Source: Gemmatimonadales bacterium
GTDB lineage: Bacteria; Gemmatimonadota; Gemmatimonadetes; Gemmatimonadales; GWC2-71-9
Length of the DNA: 64,000 nt
Assembly: GCA_011772755.1 (NCBI GenBank)
Contig: WVYX01000291.1
Location: 27,365 to 91,364, forward strand
Direction of reading: 5' to 3'
The position numbers and the translations under genes are program-made. Each line of letters begins with the position of its first letter. Position 1 is the first letter of the stretch. Below the pieces are notes generated by a model. It searched no databases. It saw only the letters and a list, made by a program, of their open reading frames with translations, and had not been told where the DNA came from. Below, piece after piece: positions 997 through 30,021 of this stretch.

Positions 997-2916
997 TCAC
1001 TGGTACGCGCGAGTCCCCGTGCCAACAGTCCAGACGAGGACGGTGCCGCAGTCCGGTGTCTGTTCCTCCGGTGGGAGGTACGCCTCCGGGGTCTCGACGG
1101 CGTTGCGGAACACTTCGACTGCGGCTACCCACTCGATGGGCAGCGTCCTGAGGAACTGCCACGTCACCGCTGGATGTCCGTCGATGTAGACGGCGGGCGG
1201 ACAGCTACTGGCGTTCAGGGCGACTGAGCGCTGCTCGGGCGGCCCAGTCACGCGGGCCCCGTGCACGGTGGCGACCAGTGCCAACAGGGTTTCGGCGGCC
1301 CGCTCTTCGATTTCGCTTTGGTTGAATGAGAACAGCGTGATGCCGGATGCGCGTCGCTGGCTGAAGGCGGCCAGCGGCTCGACAACCCTGCGTGGCGCCG
1401 TGTCCGGCACGGCGGAGTCCGGTGGTGCTACGAGGTACCGCAGGTTCGCCCGCAGATCCACCATCTGACCCCGGGCCACTTCCAGCGGCTCCGACGAAAC
1501 GCCCCGGTATCCCCAGCGGCTCACCTGAAGGCGGAACAGCCCGGGACCGGGAGCCGTGAGTTCGAACCATCCTTGCGGGGTACTCTGAGTCACAGCGTGC
1601 ACGCTGTCGGAGGGGCCCAACAGCAGCACGGTTGCCCGGGCTACAGGCCCGCCGGCACCGAGCTCGGCCGCCACGCCGCGGAGAACGGGACCCGGCGAGG
1701 GTCGCATGAGGTCGGGGCTCGCGTGCCACTCGGTGTCCGGCTCGTCCGGGACGTCGCTGACGGCGACCGCCCCCGCACTCGATGCGACTGCGACGTCGTG
1801 CTGGAACTGAATTACGTATCCGCCCGTCTCGTGAAACCCCAGGAGTGTTGGCCGCCGGATGGGGTCTCGCCGGACCAGCACCGGCATGCGCAGCCACCAG
1901 TGGCTTACAATCCAGGGTCCGGTGGGGAGCTGCTCGAACTCGACGTGGCCACCGACATGTCGCGTGGGTACCGGCCACGGCAGCCGCGTGTACTCGAAAT
2001 CGACGTATCTGAGACGCGCGGTCTCCTTGCTGAGCCAGAGCACGCCCCTCACGTCCGGCAATTCGCGTCGGCGTACCGGCTCGAACCCGAGGCCCACCAG
2101 CTCGGCTTCGTCGCGATGTTCTCGCAAGTAGAAGCAGTGGTCGTTCGCGAACGTCTCCGACAGCAGCACGTCGGCGTCGGGACCGAAGTGCTCCCATGCC
2201 CCGTCTGCGTTCCGGCGGATGTATCCCGTGGCAGACAGCTCCGCCGCCGGGGCGCTGGCGAAGGGGGAGCCAGCAGTGGTGCCTGAGGCCCGGGTCGCCC
2301 TTCCGCCCACGGGCTTGAGGCTCCCCGGGTTGAGCCGTCGAGTGTAGTGGATGATCTGGTATTGGAGCGAATCCGACCGCTGGCTCCACGACACGGCCGA
2401 CAGCGCCTTGCGTGCCTCCTCCCACACCTGCGCCACGGCGGCACCGGCATCCGGGGTGACGCGGCAGCGGGCCTCTCCCGTAACCACTACTGCACTCAAC
2501 CGTATCGGGAGAAGTACCACCTCCATCCGGTACGGGAGGATCTCGTCGGCCCCGAGGACGAACGGGCGCGAGGTCTGGCTCTTGACGCCAATGATGGCCG
2601 TCTGCAGCCGGTACGTCCCTGCTTCCGGTGCTTGGAGGGCGAACCGCCCCAGCGCGTCTGTGCGGGCTCGCCCACGCTCGGCACCGGTGGAGTCCCGGAG
2701 CACGACGAACGCGTAGGCCACGGGACGCCCGCTACCCTGGGCCACTAGCTCGCCCTCGATCTGCTGCGCCTCGACGGCCGCCCACGGGGGGCAGACGAGG
2801 ACGCCGACTGCGAGGATCAGCCAGTGGGAGTTGTTCGTCCGACTCGAACGGCCTGTCCTGACCACGGTTTCAGGGCACCTCTCCTCATTAACCCGACTTG
2901 GCCGCCCCCGGTTCAT
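997..2916 (-). CDS. secreted CarboxypepD_reg-like repeat protein with C-terminal plug-like block (no barrel)
   Basis: 639-aa ORF with two Ig-like segments (e.g. GRPVAYAFVVLRDSTGAERGRARTDALGRFAL and GGPVARATVLLLGPSDSVHAVTQSTPQGWFEL). The C-terminal CPPAVYIDG...CGTVLVWT block is shared with 4999-5871 and 7393-8169. It starts 27 nt after the Clp1-like gene. Confidence 0.65.
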   Translation of the reverse strand: MNRGRPSRVNEERCPETVVRTGRSSRTNNSHWLILAVGVLVCPPWAAVEAQQIEGELVAQGSGRPVAYAFVVLRDSTGAERGRARTDALGRFALQAPEAGTYRLQTAIIGVKSQTSRPFVLGADEILPYRMEVVLLPIRLSAVVVTGEARCRVTPDAGAAVAQVWEEARKALSAVSWSQRSDSLQYQIIHYTRRLNPGSLKPVGGRATRASGTTAGSPFASAPAAELSATGYIRRNADGAWEHFGPDADVLLSETFANDHCFYLREHRDEAELVGLGFEPVRRRELPDVRGVLWLSKETARLRYVDFEYTRLPWPVPTRHVGGHVEFEQLPTGPWIVSHWWLRMPVLVRRDPIRRPTLLGFHETGGYVIQFQHDVAVASSAGAVAVSDVPDEPDTEWHASPDLMRPSPGPVLRGVAAELGAGGPVARATVLLLGPSDSVHAVTQSTPQGWFELTAPGPGLFRLQVSRWGYRGVSSEPLEVARGQMVDLRANLRYLVAPPDSAVPDTAPRRVVEPLAAFSQRRASGITLFSFNQSEIEERAAETLLALVATVHGARVTGPPEQRSVALNASSCPPAVYIDGHPAVTWQFLRTLPIEWVAAVEVFRNAVETPEAYLPPEEQTPDCGTVLVWTVGTGTRAYQ

Positions 2917-2943: not shown

Positions 2944-3837
2944 CTATCTGCCTCCGCCGGGCGGTCCGTAGTACAGCTCCCTCCCGTCTCGGTCGAGGCG
3001 GATCGACCCAAGCTGCACCGAGGCGACCTGGCTCGCTGCGAAGGGAGGTGCGTACAGCTCGAGGCAGCCTTCGTCGAGCCGCAGGCCTTCTATGATCCCC
3101 ATCACCACCACGAACCCACGCCGGTCGCACAAGGCGACGAGGCGCGTGCGGAAGCGTTCGGGACTATCGGTGGCCGGAACCATGCCGTGGAATCCGACGC
3201 CGTCGAGGGACAGTGTCCGCACCGCTGCCCCCTCGAAGTATTGCCTGAACTTGCGGTGTCGGTAAGCCCGGCGCTCTGTGGGATCTCGGCCCACCACGGC
3301 TTGGGAGATCGGTAGGCGGCACACCTCGAGGTCCACTCGGCGCGCGAAGCTCCCAAGCAGCGGCTCCAGCTCGTCTGCCTGCTGGAGGGCAACCAGGTAG
3401 TCGGGCTCGAGGAGGTCAAGCGTCTGATAGTGGAACTCTCGGAGGGCGCCGGTGGAGCCGTAGCCCGACGAGTCGAGGACGATTCTCTGAGCGCCGTCTT
3501 CGGACGCCCGATCGACGAGCCGCTTGACGCCTGTCAGCGTCTGCAGCAAATGCCCGCTGGGCGTCGTCGAGCCAACGAACCGCAACGCTGAGACGCGCTT
3601 CCCATCCCATGGCTCCCAAGCAAGCCCCAGTGCGGCAGGTGGTCCCAGCACCGATTGCCCGGGGTCACAGTCGATGGCGGCCGTGCGGTGGGACTTGGCA
3701 AGCTCCCTCCCCAGGTAGCGACACAGCGTCGTCTTCCCGGAGTCGACGGGACCGAGGACGATGATGCTGCGCCACTGCCGGTCGTCCTGCAGTCGAGCCA
3801 AGAGTGCTTGCCAGGAGCGTTCGACCCGGATCGTCAC
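2944..3837 (-). CDS. Clp1/Grc3-family P-loop polynucleotide 5'-kinase-like protein
   Basis: Motifs occur in Clp1 order: Walker A GPVDSGKTT, DCDPGQS, FVGSTTPSG, VLDSSG. Start placed at in-frame GTG 3837, which forms a GTGA overlap with the upstream stop (3834-3836). The track start 3981 would overlap the upstream gene by 148 nt. Confidence 0.7.
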   Translation of the reverse strand: MTIRVERSWQALLARLQDDRQWRSIIVLGPVDSGKTTLCRYLGRELAKSHRTAAIDCDPGQSVLGPPAALGLAWEPWDGKRVSALRFVGSTTPSGHLLQTLTGVKRLVDRASEDGAQRIVLDSSGYGSTGALREFHYQTLDLLEPDYLVALQQADELEPLLGSFARRVDLEVCRLPISQAVVGRDPTERRAYRHRKFRQYFEGAAVRTLSLDGVGFHGMVPATDSPERFRTRLVALCDRRGFVVVMGIIEGLRLDEGCLELYAPPFAASQVASVQLGSIRLDRDGRELYYGPPGGGR

Positions 3838-4721
3838 GCCTCGATGTGCCGCAGTCGCCCGGCGAGCCATTGCGCTTCGTCGTCGAAGCCGACCTCCCGC
3901 CAGAAGTCCCGCAGGCGTCGGTATCGATCCACGACATCGAAACCAACGCTGTGGTGCAGCTTGCGGAGGTCTGCCGGGCAAAGGTGAAGCGGCCGCGCAT
4001 CACTCTCGGTGACGTGGTTCGAGCCGTTCATCAGGCAGTGGAAGAAGATGCAGTGCTGGATGCCGAACATGTGCGCCGTCTCGTGCGCCAGCACCCTGCA
4101 ACTTCGACGGAGCATCACGTGCTCAGCGTGCCCCCGCTCCTCCCCGTAGAACCGGGGGTCGTAGCGGGCGAAGCTATACACAGCCACCCGTTCCAGTAGC
4201 GAGGCCTGGCCGAAGACGAAATTCCACGCCGGCTCCGGATAGAGGTCCGACATGGTGATCCCGAGGAGACAGAAGGCGTCGCTGGGGAGCCGGCGCGTGA
4301 GGAGTGTCAAGATGTCGGTGGTCAGCAGCTGTATCTGTCGAGTGTAGGGATTCCTTCTCGACGTAATGGGGTGCTGCCCCAGGCCGCCCGGCGACAGGAT
4401 GGTGACCTCGATGGCAAAGAAGGCTTGGGCGAACCGTCGAAGCTGCTCGAGAGATGGGCCCTCGCCTGCCGGAAAGTCCTCCAGCGGTTGGAGGTAGATC
4501 TTGCTTCGGGTTGTATCGGGCTTGTTGCAGCCGGCATTGACAAACTGTTCGAAGGTTTGACCCAACTCCGGGTGGTTCGCAAGCCAGTCATGGGGGGCCG
4601 GTTCCGGGATCGGCCGGAACTCATCGCCAGGTTCGCAGGCCCGCTGCAATGCTGGGGGGAGCCGGTCGACTGGTCCGATGGCTCGGTGGCGCATGTCTGA
4701 CGCAGGTGGAGTGAAACCCAT
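3834..4721 (-). CDS. archaemetzincin-family zinc metallopeptidase (MEROPS M54-like)
   Basis: HETAHMFGIQHCIFFHCLM matches HExxHxxGx3Cx4CxM. The distal site reads CPAD instead of CxxC. N-terminal DWLANHPELGQTFEQF block is also AMZ-like. Start is ambiguous (ATG at 4721, 4694 or 4904). Confidence 0.75.
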   Translation of the reverse strand: MGFTPPASDMRHRAIGPVDRLPPALQRACEPGDEFRPIPEPAPHDWLANHPELGQTFEQFVNAGCNKPDTTRSKIYLQPLEDFPAGEGPSLEQLRRFAQAFFAIEVTILSPGGLGQHPITSRRNPYTRQIQLLTTDILTLLTRRLPSDAFCLLGITMSDLYPEPAWNFVFGQASLLERVAVYSFARYDPRFYGEERGHAEHVMLRRSCRVLAHETAHMFGIQHCIFFHCLMNGSNHVTESDARPLHLCPADLRKLHHSVGFDVVDRYRRLRDFWREVGFDDEAQWLAGRLRHIEA

Positions 4722-4998
4722 GGCGCAGCTCGACGGGTCGCACGTCAGTATCAACGTATCGGTCGAGGGAGGTCTTGTCACGCCAGTGTCGCGCGGTGTC
4801 ACATTGCGGAACCCGAGTACTGGCATGCGCAACTGAGAGGCGGCAACTGCGGCGAGACCAGGTGTATTACGACTACGTGGCCGCGTGGAGTACCTGCCTC
4901 GCAACCCCTAATTGCGACAGTAGCCGTTGGGTTCGCTGACGCGGGGCGGAGGCGGCCTGGAGACTGCAAGCCGCAGGCCATGATGATGGAGGTGCCCT

Positions 4999-5871
4999 AT
5001 GCGGGTCCACGACGCCTCCCCTCGCCAGCAGCGACAAACTCTCAGGGCGGTCCTCGGCCTGATCGTCTCCCTTTCATTGCCACTCGCGCCGGCCTTGCTT
5101 GAGGCGCAGACCGACAGTGCCGTTGTCGTGACGGGGAAGGTTGTCTCCAGTGAGACGGGGGAGCCGATTCAGGGAGCCATTGTCGAAGTCGTAGCGCTCA
5201 ACCTGCAAACCCGGACTGATGCACAGGGCCGGTTCCGACTCGCGGGAGTACCCATCGGCCGGCACGAGTTCAGGGTGCGGCAGCTCGGCTTCAGAGCCCT
5301 CGTGCTGACGGTGGGAGTCCCCCAGCCTGGGCAGGCAGAGCTGGGTCGACTCGAGCTCACTGCGGGAACACCTGTGTTGGAGGGAGTGGTGGTGGAGGCT
5401 GAGCCCACGGTGCGGCACCTCGCGCAGGTGGGATTCTACGAGCGCAAGGAATCCGAGGTCGGCGCGTTCGTCGAGCGCAAGCAGCTCAGGGCTTGGGCGC
5501 CTCGGGTGACCACCGACGTGTTGCGGCACATGCCGGGGATCAGAGTCCTTCCCAATCCCAACTACGGACGGGACCTGCCACCACCCAGGTCGGCCATGGG
5601 ATTTGTGCTTGGCCCGAGCCCTGGCAGGGATTTGCGCCGATTCCTCATCTATTCGACACGGGCGCCGAGCGCCGAGCAATGTCCGCCGCTGTACTTCGTA
5701 GACGGCGTCTACGTCGGCGATGGACTCACCGTGGACTTGGACTCGCACGTCAGCGCGGCTCAGCTGGATGCCGTGGAGTACTACTCCGGCTCAGGCAGGG
5801 TGCCGGCGCGGTTCAACCGGCCGGGATCGGCGTGCGGCGTGCTGGTGCTGTGGCGGAGGGTGGGTCAGTAG
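4999..5871 (+). CDS. secreted CarboxypepD_reg-like protein with plug-like C-terminus
   Basis: 290 aa with a signal peptide ending LLEAQT. Ig-like segment VVTGKVVSSETGEPIQGAIVEVVALNLQTRTDAQGRFRLAGVPIGRHEF. C-terminal CPPLYFVDG...CGVLVLW block. Confidence 0.75.
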   Translation: MRVHDASPRQQRQTLRAVLGLIVSLSLPLAPALLEAQTDSAVVVTGKVVSSETGEPIQGAIVEVVALNLQTRTDAQGRFRLAGVPIGRHEFRVRQLGFRALVLTVGVPQPGQAELGRLELTAGTPVLEGVVVEAEPTVRHLAQVGFYERKESEVGAFVERKQLRAWAPRVTTDVLRHMPGIRVLPNPNYGRDLPPPRSAMGFVLGPSPGRDLRRFLIYSTRAPSAEQCPPLYFVDGVYVGDGLTVDLDSHVSAAQLDAVEYYSGSGRVPARFNRPGSACGVLVLWRRVGQ

Positions 5872-7213: not shown

Positions 7214-7453
7214 ATGGGCGACCCGCGGCATAGGATACGCGCTGTGGCATATCAACCCATCGAGGACTACGGCGTGATCGGAGACATGCGCACCGTGGCG
7301 CTAGTGGGGAAGAACGGCTCGATTGACTGGGGGGCGGAGCTTAGCGAGTTCCCGCGTTCGCAGCCGTACAGCGATACGTATCTCAACCAGGCTCAGCTAC
7401 CCGGCTTCCTCCACACTGCGATCACCCCACACAGAGACTCGCGACCCGTGTAG
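7214..7453 (+). pseudogene. glycoside hydrolase family 15 (glucoamylase/trehalase-like) N-terminal remnant
   Basis: [27 protein letters not shown] matches the conserved GH15 N-terminus. Similarity ends near 7330, and the ORF then runs into the 3' end of the opposite-strand gene 7393-8169. Confidence 0.5.
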
Positions 7454-8169
7454 AACTCATCGGGCACGACGGCAGCGGTGTATATCTCGACGCCAGCCAG
7501 GTCACGGGGGAGCAACTCGAAGTCGGGGCCACGATCACCGGCATCGTCGATGGTGCCCCACCACTTCCCGTCTACGTAGAGCTGCGGTGGGCAATCGCCG
7601 CTGCGCTCGCCGCGGTGTCTCACCCCAGCTCGCTCGGCACCGGCGTGTGAGCCAGCGAGGCGTACCGTGAAGTAATCGCGGCTCCCGGGCAGCGGGACGA
7701 CGCTCACACCTGACAGGTGCTGCATGATGTCCGTGAACCGGTCCCCGCCCCGCTCCTGTATGTCTTGCGCCGTCAGGAACGTCCCGTTCCCCGTCGCCCT
7801 GCGCTGGTAGAACGCCTCCATCCAGCCGGTTTCACCTCCCACCGGCGCCAGTCGCACCTCCAGCTCGCTGGCCTCATCTGTCCTGAGCTTCATCGGCTGC
7901 GAGTCCCACGTGCTGTAGCCGGCACCACCAACGCGAACGGTATAAGTGTCGTTCTCCGGTATCGCGAGCGAGAAGGACCCGTCGGGTGCTGTGAGCGTCC
8001 CTCGGCGAATCTGGCCTTTGCTGTCAAGCAGCACGACCGAGGCGTCGGCGACCGGGTCACCGGTGGCAGCGTTGACCACCACACCCCGAACAGTTTGCGC
8101 AGCGAGCTCGCCCGCCGTCGGGAGGGCCAGAATAGCAGAGAGCGCAATGCCACAGATCATAGTCCGCAT
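7393..8169 (-). CDS. secreted CarboxypepD_reg-like protein with plug-like C-terminus
   Basis: Start moved to ATG 8169 ([17 protein letters not shown]...) because GGAGG lies 5 nt upstream; the track GTG start contains that SD. Ig-like [43 protein letters not shown]-terminal CPPQLYVDG...CGVIAVW. Confidence 0.72.
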
Positions 8170-8283
8170 TGTGGCCTCCACACTTTTTGAACTCCCGCCT
8201 AAAGATGCCGTCTTCCACGGTAACCGGTCAATCGAGAACAGCAGGGCCAGACCGGGAGCCGCGCATCACGCCGAGCAGTTGGC

Positions 8284-28554: not shown

Positions 28555-29952
28555 TCAGGTCAACTGCACCCGTTCTCCATCCTCTGCAACGACTGCAGAC
28601 CAGCCGAGACGATCCGTAATCAATCCCGCCAAGGTATCAGACGCACCGGGTTCGCCATGCACCAGATACGTTCGGTTGGGAGGGTGCTCGAACCCAGCGA
28701 GCCAGCGTAGTAACTCGCGTTGATCGGCGTGGGCGGATAGACCATGGAGGGTGTGAACCTTTGCACGCACTGGCACGTCCCGCCCGTGGATGCGGACCTG
28801 CCGCGCGCCGTCCTGCAGGGCCCGCCCCCGGGTTCCGGCAGCCTGGAAGCCCACGAGGAGAACGGTCGTGCGTCGCTGCGGAAGGCGCAACTTCATGTGG
28901 TGCAGGATGCGCCCGCCGGTGGCCATGCCGCTGGCCGAAATGATGATCACCGGACCTTTGACATCATTGAGAGCTATGGATTCCTCGCGCCCCCGGGCGA
29001 AGCGGAACTGTTCGGGACGGAGGGGGTGCTCGCCAGCTTCCATGAGGCGCCGCATGTCGGGGTCGTGCTCCTCCGTCCGTCGCCGATAGAGTTTGGTCAC
29101 GTCGATGGCCATGGGACTGTCCATGTAGACCGGTAGCTTGGGGATTCGACCATCGTCTTCGAGCTGCCGCAGCCGCCAGAGCAGTTCCTGTGTTCGTCCC
29201 ACGGCGAAGGCGGGGATGAGAATCGCGTGACCCCGGTCCGCCGACCGGCGCACGATGGCCGCTAGGTCCTCGTCTGGGTCTGCCTCGTGCATCCGGTTGC
29301 CGTACGTCGATTCCACGAGCAGATACTCGGCGTGGGGAATGAGTTCCGGATCGTGTAGGATCGGACGGTCCCACCGGCCTAGATCACCAGAGAACGCCAC
29401 CTGTATGGGCTTCTTGCCGTCGAGGCTCAGCTCGATGCTCGCGGAGCCCAGGATGTGGCCCGCAGTGCGAAACAGTGCTGTCACTCCATCCGCTACTTCG
29501 AAGGGCGTCTGATACGGGCGAGCCTTCAGTAGCCCGAGCGCGGCATCGGCATCGACGCGGGTGAACAGCGGCAGGGCTGGCCGGTGCTTGGTGCGGCCCC
29601 GCCGGTTGAGGTGCTCCGCCTGCTCCTCCTGCAGATGGGCTGCGTCCCGCAGTAGGATCCCTAGCAGGCCTCCCGTCGCGCCGGTGCATAACACCGGTCC
29701 GCTGAAGCCGTTGCGCACGAGCACCGGTAGGTAGCCCGTGTGGTCGATATGGGCGTGACTCAGGACGACGGCATCGATCGAACCGGGGTCGACCGGTGGT
29801 TCGCTCCAGTTGCGCAGCCGGAGCCGCTTCAGGCCCTGGAACATTCCGCAGTCCAGCAGCACCCGCTGCCCGCCGACTGTGACCAGGTGCTTGGACCCCG
29901 TCACCGTCCCGGCGGCACCGAGGAATTGGACACTCCGATGGTTCTGGGCCAT
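28555..29952 (-). CDS. beta-CASP family MBL-fold nuclease (RNA-metabolising metallo-beta-lactamase)
   Basis: Start at ATG 29952. VQFLGAAGTVTGSKHLV, HAHIDHTGYLP (HxHxDH), and SAHAD near the C-terminus, which is the typical beta-CASP layout. Confidence 0.85.
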   Translation of the reverse strand: MAQNHRSVQFLGAAGTVTGSKHLVTVGGQRVLLDCGMFQGLKRLRLRNWSEPPVDPGSIDAVVLSHAHIDHTGYLPVLVRNGFSGPVLCTGATGGLLGILLRDAAHLQEEQAEHLNRRGRTKHRPALPLFTRVDADAALGLLKARPYQTPFEVADGVTALFRTAGHILGSASIELSLDGKKPIQVAFSGDLGRWDRPILHDPELIPHAEYLLVESTYGNRMHEADPDEDLAAIVRRSADRGHAILIPAFAVGRTQELLWRLRQLEDDGRIPKLPVYMDSPMAIDVTKLYRRRTEEHDPDMRRLMEAGEHPLRPEQFRFARGREESIALNDVKGPVIIISASGMATGGRILHHMKLRLPQRRTTVLLVGFQAAGTRGRALQDGARQVRIHGRDVPVRAKVHTLHGLSAHADQRELLRWLAGFEHPPNRTYLVHGEPGASDTLAGLITDRLGWSAVVAEDGERVQLT

Positions 29953-30021
29953 GGGTGAGAGCGGCTCGAGTGAGGGAGAAGGGAGGGAGGTTCTCGTCAC
30001 CCCTCCCTCCTCCCTCCCTTC

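What the first reader, a model, noticed from the sequence alone, without database searches (positions are those of the whole stretch)
2944..4721. Translationally coupled archaemetzincin and Clp1-family polynucleotide kinase in a bacterium
Seen: the metallopeptidase carries the archaemetzincin signature HETAHMFGIQHCIFFHCLM. Its TGA (3834-3836) overlaps an in-frame GTG (3835-3837) of the next ORF, giving GTGA. That next ORF has Clp1/Grc3/Nol9 motifs in order: GPVDSGKTT, DCDPGQS, FVGSTTPSG, VLDSSG. Established: Clp1-family enzymes are 5'-OH polynucleotide kinases of eukaryotic and archaeal RNA processing. No physiological substrate is established for archaemetzincins (M54) in any organism. Inference: obligate co-expression of these two archaeal/eukaryal-type families suggests a functional partnership, such as RNA repair/processing coupled to proteolysis or a nucleotide-gated protease. 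I do not know of such a pairing having been described. One detail: the distal CxxC of the AMZ signature reads CPAD here.
Basis: partly seen in the sequence, partly recalled or inferred. Interest (0 to 1): 0.65.

Follow-up and report, generated by a model that had tools for sequence, protein, structure and literature searches.

The report
Archaemetzincin–Clp1 kinase operon, clade-restricted
A zinc protease gene of the little-understood archaemetzincin family and a bacterial Clp1-type RNA 5'-end kinase gene overlap by four bases in this Gemmatimonadota-like genome; the same pair recurs in five other uncultured lineages, but most relatives of either gene lack it, so it is a modest lead to function and not an obligate partnership.

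Summary
On the minus strand, an archaemetzincin (M54) gene (3834-4721) ends in a TGA that overlaps the GTG start of a 297-aa Clp1-family P-loop kinase gene (2944-3837). Sequence profiles and predicted folds confirm both families, and both proteins keep their catalytic motifs.

The pair is not unique to this genome. The order AMZ then Clp1, with an NTGA junction, recurs in five other diverged metagenomic lineages (Clp1 53-66% identical, GC 49-65%). These lineages share no other flanking gene.

The pairing is narrow, however. All six cases fall in one small Clp1 subclade, a single 50%-identity cluster, and at least one member of that subclade has lost or never had it. It is absent from 46 of the 52 Clp1-like loci examined, including an archaeal one. 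The four nearest archaemetzincin homologues I checked carry other neighbours (PadR, TPR). No fusion protein, RNA data or published report was found.

Bacterial Clp1 kinases and bacterial archaemetzincins are each already known. "CPAD" is the norm of this AMZ subfamily.

Best reading: a clade-restricted, co-translated two-gene operon of two autonomous enzymes. A real partnership remains possible (about 30%).

The parts
3834..4721 (-). Archaemetzincin-type (MEROPS M54) zinc metallopeptidase gene, 295 aa plus its TGA stop. No signal peptide was evident by eye in the N-terminal sequence, so it is probably cytoplasmic.
   Evidence: PF07998 scores E 1.9e-11, 44.8 bits against a cut-off of 24.4. The NCBIfam archmetzin model gives 88.5 bits, below its 145-bit cut-off. 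PDB sequence hits are 2x7m, 4axq, 3zvs and 3lmc. The AF2 model has pLDDT 92.6, and its Foldseek top 3 hits are archaemetzincins with TMt 0.75-0.78.
3969..4085 (-). AMZ metal-site motif: HETAHMFGIQHC-x4-C-x-M-x16-CPAD, residues 213-251. It contains the catalytic HExxHxxGxxH, the Met-turn, and a Cys3+Asp second metal site.
   Evidence: Read directly from the translation. CxxD with a 16-residue spacer occurs in 93 of 95 motif-matching homologues. H213, E214, H217, H223, C224, C229 and C248 are invariant across 73 homologues.
2944..3837 (-). Short bacterial Clp1-family polynucleotide 5'-OH kinase gene, 297 aa, GTG start, stop at 2944-2946. It has the PNK domain and a Clp1-like C-terminal beta domain but no N-terminal domain.
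   Evidence: PF16575 CLP1_P scores E 2e-31 and covers the full profile, 1-188. A profile search of the PDB gives human CLP1 8hmy at E 3e-14. The AF2 model has pLDDT 95.5, and Foldseek ranks 1-23 are all Clp1/Grc3/Nol9 with TMq 0.57-0.74, 0.68-0.74 for ranks 1-21.
3730..3753 (-). Walker A / P-loop GPVDSGKT (residues 29-36) of the kinase.
   Evidence: Checked against the DNA. G29, G34 and K35 are invariant across 103 homologues.
3834..3837 (-). GTGA junction: the AMZ stop codon TGA overlaps the kinase start codon GTG.
   Evidence: The same NTGA junction occurs in L035 (ATGA), L037, L060 and L061 (GTGA) and L045 (CTGA).
4722..4998 (.). A 277-nt divergent intergenic region between the AMZ start and the + strand CarboxypepD_reg gene. 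It is the presumed promoter region of the pair (inferred).
   Evidence: ORF map. The consensus scan found no sigma-70-like site, so the promoter is not located.
997..2916 (-). Downstream 639-aa CarboxypepD_reg-domain protein gene, 27 nt after the kinase stop. It may be co-transcribed in this genome only and is not part of the conserved module.
   Evidence: PF13620 scores E 1e-19. No terminator-like site lies between the two genes. The other paired loci have unrelated downstream genes.

Best explanation
This is a two-gene operon restricted to one small clade. Its first gene encodes a probably cytoplasmic, catalytically intact archaemetzincin-type zinc peptidase. Its second gene encodes a short bacterial Clp1-family kinase that most likely phosphorylates 5'-OH ends of single-stranded RNA, and more weakly DNA. 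That would make RNA fragments substrates for 5'-phosphate-dependent decay or ligation.

Both genes are transcribed from a promoter in the 277-nt region upstream of the peptidase gene. Ribosomes terminating at the peptidase UGA restart at the overlapping GUG, so the kinase is made together with the peptidase and probably in no greater amount.

The two enzymes most probably act independently, on peptide/protein and on RNA substrates respectively, and share only regulation. The pairing arose once or a few times in one small Clp1 subclade. It persisted partly because a zero-length intergenic gap is hard to break.

Shown here: the families, the intact motifs, the overlap, and the recurrence and limits of the pairing. 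Inferred: co-transcription, reinitiation, kinase substrate, cytoplasmic location, and independence of the two activities.
For: Families and folds.

Catalytic motifs are intact. Kinase: Walker A GPVDSGKT; Walker B D58..Q61; Lid R184-x4-R189 plus R193. G29, G34, K35, D58, Q61, D122, G125, R189 and R193 are invariant in 103 homologues; motif definitions come from PMC6777427. Peptidase: HExxHxxGxxH, Met-turn, and a Cys3Asp site.

A bacterial Clp1 (Ts-Clp1) has been shown to be an ssRNA-preferring 5'-OH kinase (PMC6777427).

The NTGA overlap is conserved in six lineages.

Each enzyme is autonomous in most lineages. Forty-six of 52 Clp1-like loci lack AMZ within about 6 kb. Pairing changed at least twice inside the subclade; for example, L040 is unpaired yet nested with L037/L060/L061 at 98/97 support. 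The nearest AMZ homologues have PadR/TPR neighbours. There are more than 4,300 AMZ hits against 126 Clp1-like hits.

No fusion proteins appear among the best 150 of 1,996 hits; all are 92-368 aa.

Other Clp1-like clades have different neighbours, an ABC exporter or a nitroreductase-like gene.
Against: The pair is the only synteny kept among six lineages as diverged as 53-66% (Clp1) and 62-70% (AMZ) identity, with GC from 49 to 65.5%. Conservation of that kind often marks interacting or same-pathway proteins. L037/L060/L061 cluster in both gene trees, so the pair is co-inherited. Monophyly of the paired set is not formally rejected (AU p 0.085), so losses may be few. Independence of the two activities is an argument from distribution and was not tested directly. 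No transcript data exist.
Confidence: 0.55

Rival explanations
1. True functional partnership. The peptidase and the kinase form a complex or act in one pathway in this clade, for example a clean-up or repair route in which proteolysis and RNA/DNA 5'-end healing are coupled, or one enzyme regulates or processes the other.
For: The gene order and the overlapping junction are retained in six deeply diverged lineages that share no other flanking gene. The pair is co-inherited in both gene trees. Translational coupling favours fixed stoichiometry (general knowledge). The closest unpaired relative, L042, has another protease (LonC/LonB-like) directly upstream of its Clp1-like gene; this is a single case.
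Against: The pairing is confined to one 50%-identity cluster out of about 235 clusters at E<=1e-30. At least one loss or second gain occurred inside that clade. Most AMZ and most Clp1-like genes occur without the other. No fusion proteins were found. A 4-nt overlap leaves no neutral breakpoint, so persistence alone is weak evidence. No literature link was found.
Confidence: 0.3
2. The P-loop protein is not a polynucleotide kinase in vivo. It would be a Clp1-fold NTPase with another substrate or a purely structural role, as in yeast Clp1, which has lost kinase activity.
For: The Clasp motif [T/S/L]xGW reads SSGY here, and the aromatic position varies across the family. The eukaryotic N-terminal domain is absent; it is needed for ATP binding in C. 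elegans Clp1 (PMC6777427). Some database records name relatives 'GTPase'.
Against: Walker A, the Walker B Asp/Gln and the Lid arginines are invariant in 103 homologues. Prokaryotic Clp1 enzymes without the N-terminal domain (Ph-Clp1, Ts-Clp1) are active kinases (PMC6777427). The fold matches RNA-bound Clp1 structures, e.g. 4oi0 at E 1.4e-18.
Confidence: 0.1
3. The pair is a mobile defence or toxin-like cassette (protease plus NTPase) spread by horizontal transfer.
For: The distribution is patchy across lineages of very different GC content and, by record labels and best hits, across phyla: Gemmatimonadota-like for the window and Latescibacteria for L037.
Against: PADLOC gave no match for the peptidase and only a sub-threshold P-loop hit for the kinase. 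The loci read contain no integrase, transposase or repeat signatures. Neighbours are ordinary metabolic or envelope genes. The AMZ subfamily is highly conserved (about 60-70% identity) across phyla, as a housekeeping enzyme would be.
Confidence: 0.04

Closest known systems
Prokaryotic stand-alone Clp1 polynucleotide 5'-OH kinases: Thermus scotoductus Ts-Clp1 and Pyrococcus horikoshii Ph-Clp1 (Saito et al. 2019, PMC6777427; Jain & Shuman 2009, cited therein)
   Same: [quoted passage not shown] Distribution among bacteria is rare and scattered. Some databases annotate relatives as 'GTPase'.
   Different: This protein carries a ~90-aa C-terminal beta domain that superposes on the Clp1 C-terminal region (Foldseek aligns about 300 columns), whereas Ts-Clp1 is reported to lack N- and C-terminal domains. 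The Clasp Trp is Tyr here. Its activity is untested. It is encoded downstream of, and overlapping, an archaemetzincin gene, which that paper does not mention.
Eukaryotic Clp1 / Grc3 / Nol9 (human CLP1 in TSEN, 8hmy; C. elegans Clp1, 4ohv-4oi2; Grc3-Las1, 7y17/7y18)
   Same: They are the best structural and profile matches, and the catalytic motif set is the same. All work with a partner enzyme (TSEN, Pcf11, the Las1 nuclease), so a partner-dependent Clp1 has precedent.
   Different: The known partners are nucleases or scaffold proteins, never a protease. The eukaryotic N-terminal domain is absent here. Sequence identity is only 13-21%.
Archaemetzincins (MEROPS M54): AmzA of Methanopyrus kandleri (2x7m) and Archaeoglobus fulgidus (3zvs/4axq), AMZ-tk, human AMZ1/AMZ2
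   Same: HExxHxxGxxHCx4CxM signature, the same fold (TMt 0.75-0.78), no evident signal peptide, and unknown physiological substrate (PMC3427221, PMC4681839).
   Different: It is about 100 residues longer at the N-terminus and has extra C-terminal helices. The fourth Cys of the structural metal site is Asp, and the spacer is 16 residues where the published signature has 17; this holds across the subfamily. It scores below the NCBIfam 'archmetzin' cut-off.
Other bacterial archaemetzincin gene contexts: PadR | AMZ - TPR protein (found here), and a sensor kinase - AMZ - sigma-54 regulator cassette
   Same: In each, an AMZ gene is embedded in a lineage-specific conserved neighbourhood.
   Different: The partners are different, and none involves a nucleic-acid enzyme. 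This suggests that AMZ context varies by lineage and does not point to one universal partner.

Membership tests
Clp1/Grc3/Nol9 polynucleotide kinase family (Pfam CLP1_P, PF16575) | Profile match above the curated threshold over the whole PNK domain | tested here: met
   109.7 bits against a 26.6-bit cut-off; profile positions 1-188 of 188.
Clp1/Grc3/Nol9 polynucleotide kinase family (Pfam CLP1_P, PF16575) | Walker A GxxxxGK[S/T] | tested here: met
   G29-PVDS-G34-K35-T36. G29, G34 and K35 are invariant in 103 homologues.
Clp1/Grc3/Nol9 polynucleotide kinase family (Pfam CLP1_P, PF16575) | Walker B [D/E]hhQ with the catalytic Asp | tested here: met
   D58-P-G-Q61 aligns to human ELDVGQ. D58 and Q61 are invariant.
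Clp1/Grc3/Nol9 polynucleotide kinase family (Pfam CLP1_P, PF16575) | Clasp motif [T/S/L]xGW (RNA binding) | tested here: inconclusive
   It reads S123-S-G125-Y126. The Gly is invariant, but Trp is replaced by Tyr in this subclade and the position varies elsewhere in the family.
Clp1/Grc3/Nol9 polynucleotide kinase family (Pfam CLP1_P, PF16575) | Lid motif RxxxxR | tested here: met
   R184-DPTE-R189. R189 and R193 are invariant. The region aligns to the human 'ERSKDFRRECRDER' segment.
Clp1/Grc3/Nol9 polynucleotide kinase family (Pfam CLP1_P, PF16575) | Clp1 fold (PNK domain plus C-terminal domain) | tested here: met
   The AF2 model has pLDDT 95.5. Foldseek ranks 1-23 are all Clp1/Grc3/Nol9, TMq 0.57-0.74. 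The next hits are SRP GTPases at TMq about 0.3.
Clp1/Grc3/Nol9 polynucleotide kinase family (Pfam CLP1_P, PF16575) | ATP-dependent phosphorylation of 5'-OH RNA/DNA | not testable with these tools
   Requires a biochemical assay. The only bacterial precedent found is Ts-Clp1 (PMC6777427).
Archaemetzincin (MEROPS M54, Pfam PF07998) | Profile match above the curated threshold | tested here: met
   Pfam gives 44.8 bits against 24.4, but the match covers only profile positions 97-193. The NCBIfam 'archmetzin' subfamily model gives 88.5 bits against a 145-bit cut-off, so that one is NOT met.
Archaemetzincin (MEROPS M54, Pfam PF07998) | HEXXHXXGXXH zinc site with catalytic Glu and a Met-turn | tested here: met
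   H213-E-TA-H217-MF-G-IQ-H223, followed by C224-x4-C229-L-M231. These residues are invariant in 73 homologues.
Archaemetzincin (MEROPS M54, Pfam PF07998) | Four conserved Cys, CX4CXMX17CXXC (second, structural metal site) | tested here: not met
   Three Cys are present. The fourth position is Asp (C248-P-A-D251) and the spacer is 16 residues. The same holds in 93 of 95 subfamily members. This is a subfamily variant of the site, not a loss peculiar to this gene.
Archaemetzincin (MEROPS M54, Pfam PF07998) | Archaemetzincin fold | tested here: met
   The AF2 model has pLDDT 92.6. The Foldseek top 3 are 3lmc, 2x7m and 3zvs (E 1e-9 to 2e-8, TMt 0.75-0.78). ADAMs and MMPs follow only at E>4e-3.
Translationally coupled operon | Same strand with stop/start overlap | tested here: met
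   GTGA at 3834-3837(-). An NTGA junction is present in all six paired lineages.
Translationally coupled operon | A single transcript spanning both genes, with downstream translation dependent on upstream translation | not testable with these tools
   Only DNA metagenome runs hold this sequence. No promoter or terminator signal could be located.
Conserved functional gene pair (neighbourhood method) | Adjacency retained across diverged genomes that have lost surrounding synteny | tested here: met
   There are six lineages. No other homologous gene lies within 7 kb of the pair in more than one of them. Clp1 identity is 53-66% and GC is 49-65.5%.
Conserved functional gene pair (neighbourhood method) | Adjacency or co-occurrence general across the families' range | tested here: not met
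   Six of 52 Clp1-like loci are paired, all in one subclade, with at least two state changes. None of the four nearest unpaired AMZ homologues is paired. Genome-wide co-occurrence could not be tested because the genome search was shut.

The most novel reading that the evidence does not exclude
In this clade the archaemetzincin and the Clp1-type kinase form a dedicated module that repairs protein-nucleic-acid adducts or damaged RNA. The zinc protease would trim a protein or peptide covalently or tightly bound to a broken RNA/DNA end, as SPRTN/Wss1-type metalloproteases do in eukaryotic crosslink repair. The kinase would then phosphorylate the exposed 5'-OH end for ligation or 5'-P-dependent decay. 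That would give archaemetzincins their first physiological role and bacterial Clp1 its first pathway.
Probability: 0.05. Interest if true: 0.75.

Novelty: new member of a known kind. Interest (0 to 1): 0.3.

Why it matters
Archaemetzincins have no known physiological substrate in any domain of life. Bacterial Clp1 kinases have a demonstrated activity but no known pathway. A conserved, translationally coupled pairing of the two would be a rare functional clue for both. This analysis shows the clue is real but narrow. It gives six natural AMZ/Clp1 pairs and matched unpaired relatives, which form a ready-made set for interaction and activity tests. The distribution also warns that the two enzymes mostly work without each other. 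If the partnership were real, it would link proteolysis to RNA 5'-end healing in bacteria, which my literature searches did not find described.

Tried and rejected
(1) The genome search and the fetch from genomes were shut. I therefore could not search the window's own genome for extra copies, nor test whether unpaired relatives keep AMZ elsewhere.

(2) The search for related loci with the broad alignment A1 failed for lack of a conserved stretch. The narrower A2 and A3 worked.

(3) No RNA-seq runs hold the locus; only three DNA metagenome runs of one study do. Co-transcription is therefore untested.

(4) Rfam found no RNA family anywhere in the window. The promoter/terminator scan found nothing useful.

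(5) PADLOC gave no defence-system match, so the defence-cassette idea was set aside.

(6) I looked for Rosetta-stone fusions of AMZ and Clp1_P. None was present among the best 150 of 1,996 HMMER hits, nor in the Pfam columns.

(7) Literature searches for archaemetzincin or Peptidase_M54 together with Clp1 returned no papers.

(8) I looked for residual synteny around the six pairs. BLAST found no shared flanking family, although GH15/MGH1-like genes lie near L035 and L061 and a GH15-like remnant lies in the window.

(9) I considered an artificial fusion or frame-shift trick to force a pseudo-multimer structure prediction. I rejected it as not legitimate with these tools.

(10) A reading of 'CPAD' as a degenerate site peculiar to this gene was rejected. 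It is the subfamily norm.
Full report
**Anatomy**

The finding sits on the minus strand. The ORF 3834-4721(-) encodes a 295-aa protein beginning MGFTPP, which is the consensus N-terminus of its family. Its TGA stop (3834-3836) overlaps a GTG (3835-3837). That GTG opens a 297-aa ORF running to 2944.

Relatives of the second protein start M-[IV]-x-[IV]-E-x-x-W at exactly this position, so the GTG is the likely start. An in-frame ATG 39 nt upstream would also overlap the first gene.

A divergent CarboxypepD_reg gene starts 277 nt upstream of the first gene. Another CarboxypepD_reg gene follows 27 nt after the second gene, with no terminator-like site between them.

An EF-G gene in the window is 73-76% identical to its closest organism-labelled hits, which are from Gemmatimonadota; unlabelled hits reach 82%. 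The host is therefore a GC-rich (65%) Gemmatimonadota-like bacterium known from a metagenome.

**Families**

The first protein passes the Pfam Peptidase_M54 threshold. Its only PDB sequence matches are the archaemetzincin structures. It folds with pLDDT 92.6 into a model whose three best PDB matches are 3lmc, 2x7m and 3zvs, with TMt 0.75-0.78.

It keeps HExxHxxGxxH, the catalytic Glu and the Met-turn. The published signature is CX4CXMX17CXXC. Here the last element reads C-P-A-D after a 16-residue spacer. Of 95 motif-matching ~300-aa homologues, 93 have CxxD, so this is a subfamily feature and not a defect of this gene. The protein scores below NCBIfam's 'archmetzin' cut-off. That fits a divergent long-form subfamily that is itself highly conserved, with more than 4,300 hits and 59-69% identity among the top 120, which include records labelled Chloroflexota, Chthonomonadaceae, Gemmatimonadota and Latescibacteria.

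The second protein matches CLP1_P over the entire profile at E 2e-31. A profile of its relatives finds human CLP1, C. elegans Clp1, Grc3 and Nol9 in the PDB. A pLDDT-95.5 model has Clp1/Grc3/Nol9 as its 23 best structural matches, with about 300 aligned columns, so both the PNK domain and the C-terminal domain align. SRP GTPases follow far behind.

The motif definitions come from Saito et al. 2019. Walker A, the Walker B Asp/Gln and the Lid RxxxxR are present and invariant across 103 homologues. The Clasp reads SSGY where the published motif has xxGW.

**Is the pairing conserved?**

I collected 52 distinct Clp1-like loci. They came from one-genome-per-species contigs (34 loci), metagenome contigs (14 loci) and exact-protein look-ups. 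I scanned all their ORFs with the window's AMZ.

Besides the window, five distinct lineages have AMZ immediately upstream on the same strand: L035 (also seen as L036 and L043), L037 (also L044, labelled Latescibacteria), L045, L060 and L061. The junction is GTGA in three, ATGA in one and CTGA in one.

These six lineages are 53-66% identical in the kinase and 62-70% in the peptidase, and their GC ranges from 49 to 65.5%. BLAST finds no other homologous gene shared within 7 kb of the pair. The adjacency is therefore not a one-genome accident, and it outlives the surrounding synteny.

**Limits of the pairing**

All six paired loci fall in one strongly supported subclade (100*, 12 of 52 rows). Six members of that subclade are unpaired.

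A careful tree with 13 extra sequences shows that well-supported branches force at least two changes of state. For example, L040, from a complete genome whose protein is labelled Latescibacterota, has a phosphoglucomutase gene upstream. It nests with the paired L037/L060/L061 at 98/97 support. None of the 200 bootstrap trees allowed a single change. An AU test of monophyly of the paired set gives p 0.085, which does not formally reject it.

An exhaustive HMMER search of 1.84 billion cluster representatives finds 1,996 relatives, 235 of them at E<=1e-30. The whole paired subclade collapses into a single 50%-identity representative, and no hit among the best 150 listed has fusion length.

Deeper Clp1-like clades have other recurrent neighbours: an ABC exporter in 10 loci and a nitroreductase-like gene in 6. 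None has AMZ, and that includes a Methanomicrobiales locus.

On the peptidase side, the closest homologues of the window's AMZ (P0124 at 69%, P0123 and P0130 at 67%) and P0209 (66%, from a complete genome whose protein is labelled Gemmatimonadota) are not followed by a kinase. They share a different synteny: PadR, and in two of the four MacB/FtsX, divergent upstream; and in three of the four a ~750-aa TPR protein downstream.

None of the long-contig AMZ hits shares a contig length with a Clp1-like hit, apart from the paired cases.

**Interpretation**

Co-transcription, and termination-reinitiation at the NTGA junction, are the natural reading of the anatomy. They remain inferred, because only DNA runs hold this sequence.

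The distribution says that both enzymes are autonomous in most lineages and that the pairing is facultative even within its own clade. A zero-length intergenic gap also removes neutral breakpoints, which inflates the persistence of any overlapping pair.

I therefore rank 'clade-restricted operon of two independently acting enzymes under shared control' first, at about 0.55. The kinase most probably acts as in Ts-Clp1 and Ph-Clp1, phosphorylating 5'-OH ssRNA ends and so licensing 5'-P-dependent decay or ligation (PMC6777427). The peptidase acts on still-unknown, probably cytoplasmic peptide or protein substrates.

A genuine partnership keeps about 0.3, because the pair is the only conserved synteny across deeply diverged genomes and is co-inherited in both gene trees. 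PADLOC gives no support for a defence-cassette reading.

**Novelty**

Bacterial Clp1 kinases are described as rare and scattered, and one has been assayed (PMC6777427). Bacterial archaemetzincins are known too (PMC4681839). Full-text searches found no paper that links archaemetzincin or M54 with Clp1.

Earlier AI notes of this scan (unchecked) list other bacterial contexts for both families: Clp1-RNase Z fusions, a Clp1 module in Riflebacteria, and a sensor kinase-AMZ-sigma54 cassette. These fit the picture of lineage-specific contexts with no single universal partner.

The genes are ordinary new members of known families. The pairing is, as far as my searches show, an unreported but narrow neighbourhood association.

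The whole-genome search tools were shut. Genome-wide co-occurrence of the two families could therefore not be measured, and neither could the fate of AMZ in unpaired relatives. No multimer prediction was available.

Noticed in passing
L056 4598-5506; L057 653-1552; L062 389-1279 / L063 2473-3363; L064 4001-4819: The closest AMZ homologues without a kinase share their own conserved context. A PadR regulator lies divergently upstream in all four lineages, with a MacB/FtsX transporter in two of them. A ~750-aa TPR protein lies directly downstream in three of the four, including the complete genome CP070823.1, whose AMZ protein is labelled Gemmatimonadota. This may be a better clue to AMZ function than the Clp1 pairing.
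   Followed up: partly
L042 1357-3825 (+), upstream of the Clp1-like gene at about 3995-4861: In the closest unpaired relative of the window's kinase (63% identity), the upstream same-strand gene is an 822-aa LonC/LonB-like protease (AAA_32, LonB_AAA-LID, LonC_helical, Lon_C). This is a second, different protease next to this kinase clade, but only a single case.
   Followed up: partly
L006, L008, L009, L012, L014, L018, L019, L024, L026, L030 (downstream of the Clp1-like gene); L006, L010, L018, L022, L025, L030 (upstream): In the deeper Clp1-like clades (Thermodesulfobacteriota, Chloroflexota, Poribacteria, Armatimonadota), a gene that looks like an MsbA-type ABC exporter recurs next to the kinase in 10 loci, and a nitroreductase-like gene in 6. 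Both names were judged from example sequences only; no profile search was run. No RNA ligase or RtcB was seen.
   Followed up: no
L005 6001-6831; P0066/P0067: Methanomicrobiales and Methanoculleus Clp1-like proteins are 41-45% identical to the bacterial short form and nest among bacterial sequences in the tree. This suggests transfer between the domains.
   Followed up: no
window 28555-30000 (-): A beta-CASP/RMMBL metallo-beta-lactamase ribonuclease gene (RNase J / CPSF-like) lies 24 kb from the kinase. Enzymes of this class are 5'-phosphate-sensitive and could use the kinase's products, but no linkage is shown.
   Followed up: no
window 7214-7453 (+); L061 1919-4027; L035 1-505: A truncated GH15-like N-terminus lies 2.5 kb from the AMZ gene in the window. 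MGH1-like or trehalase-type glycoside hydrolase genes lie upstream of the AMZ gene in L061 (18-nt gap) and L035 (4.6 kb). BLAST did not link them at E<=1e-6, so residual synteny is unproven.
   Followed up: partly
window 997-2916 (-), 4999-5871 (+), 7393-8181 (-): Three CarboxypepD_reg-domain paralogues surround the pair. Two were confirmed by Pfam here. None recurs near the pair in other genomes.
   Followed up: partly
L038 5766-6011 and 6881-7423: In an unpaired in-clade relative (55% identity), the kinase gene is overlapped upstream by an 81-aa ORF with no Pfam match and is followed, after 10 nt, by a THEP1-type NTPase_1 (PF03266) gene.
   Followed up: no
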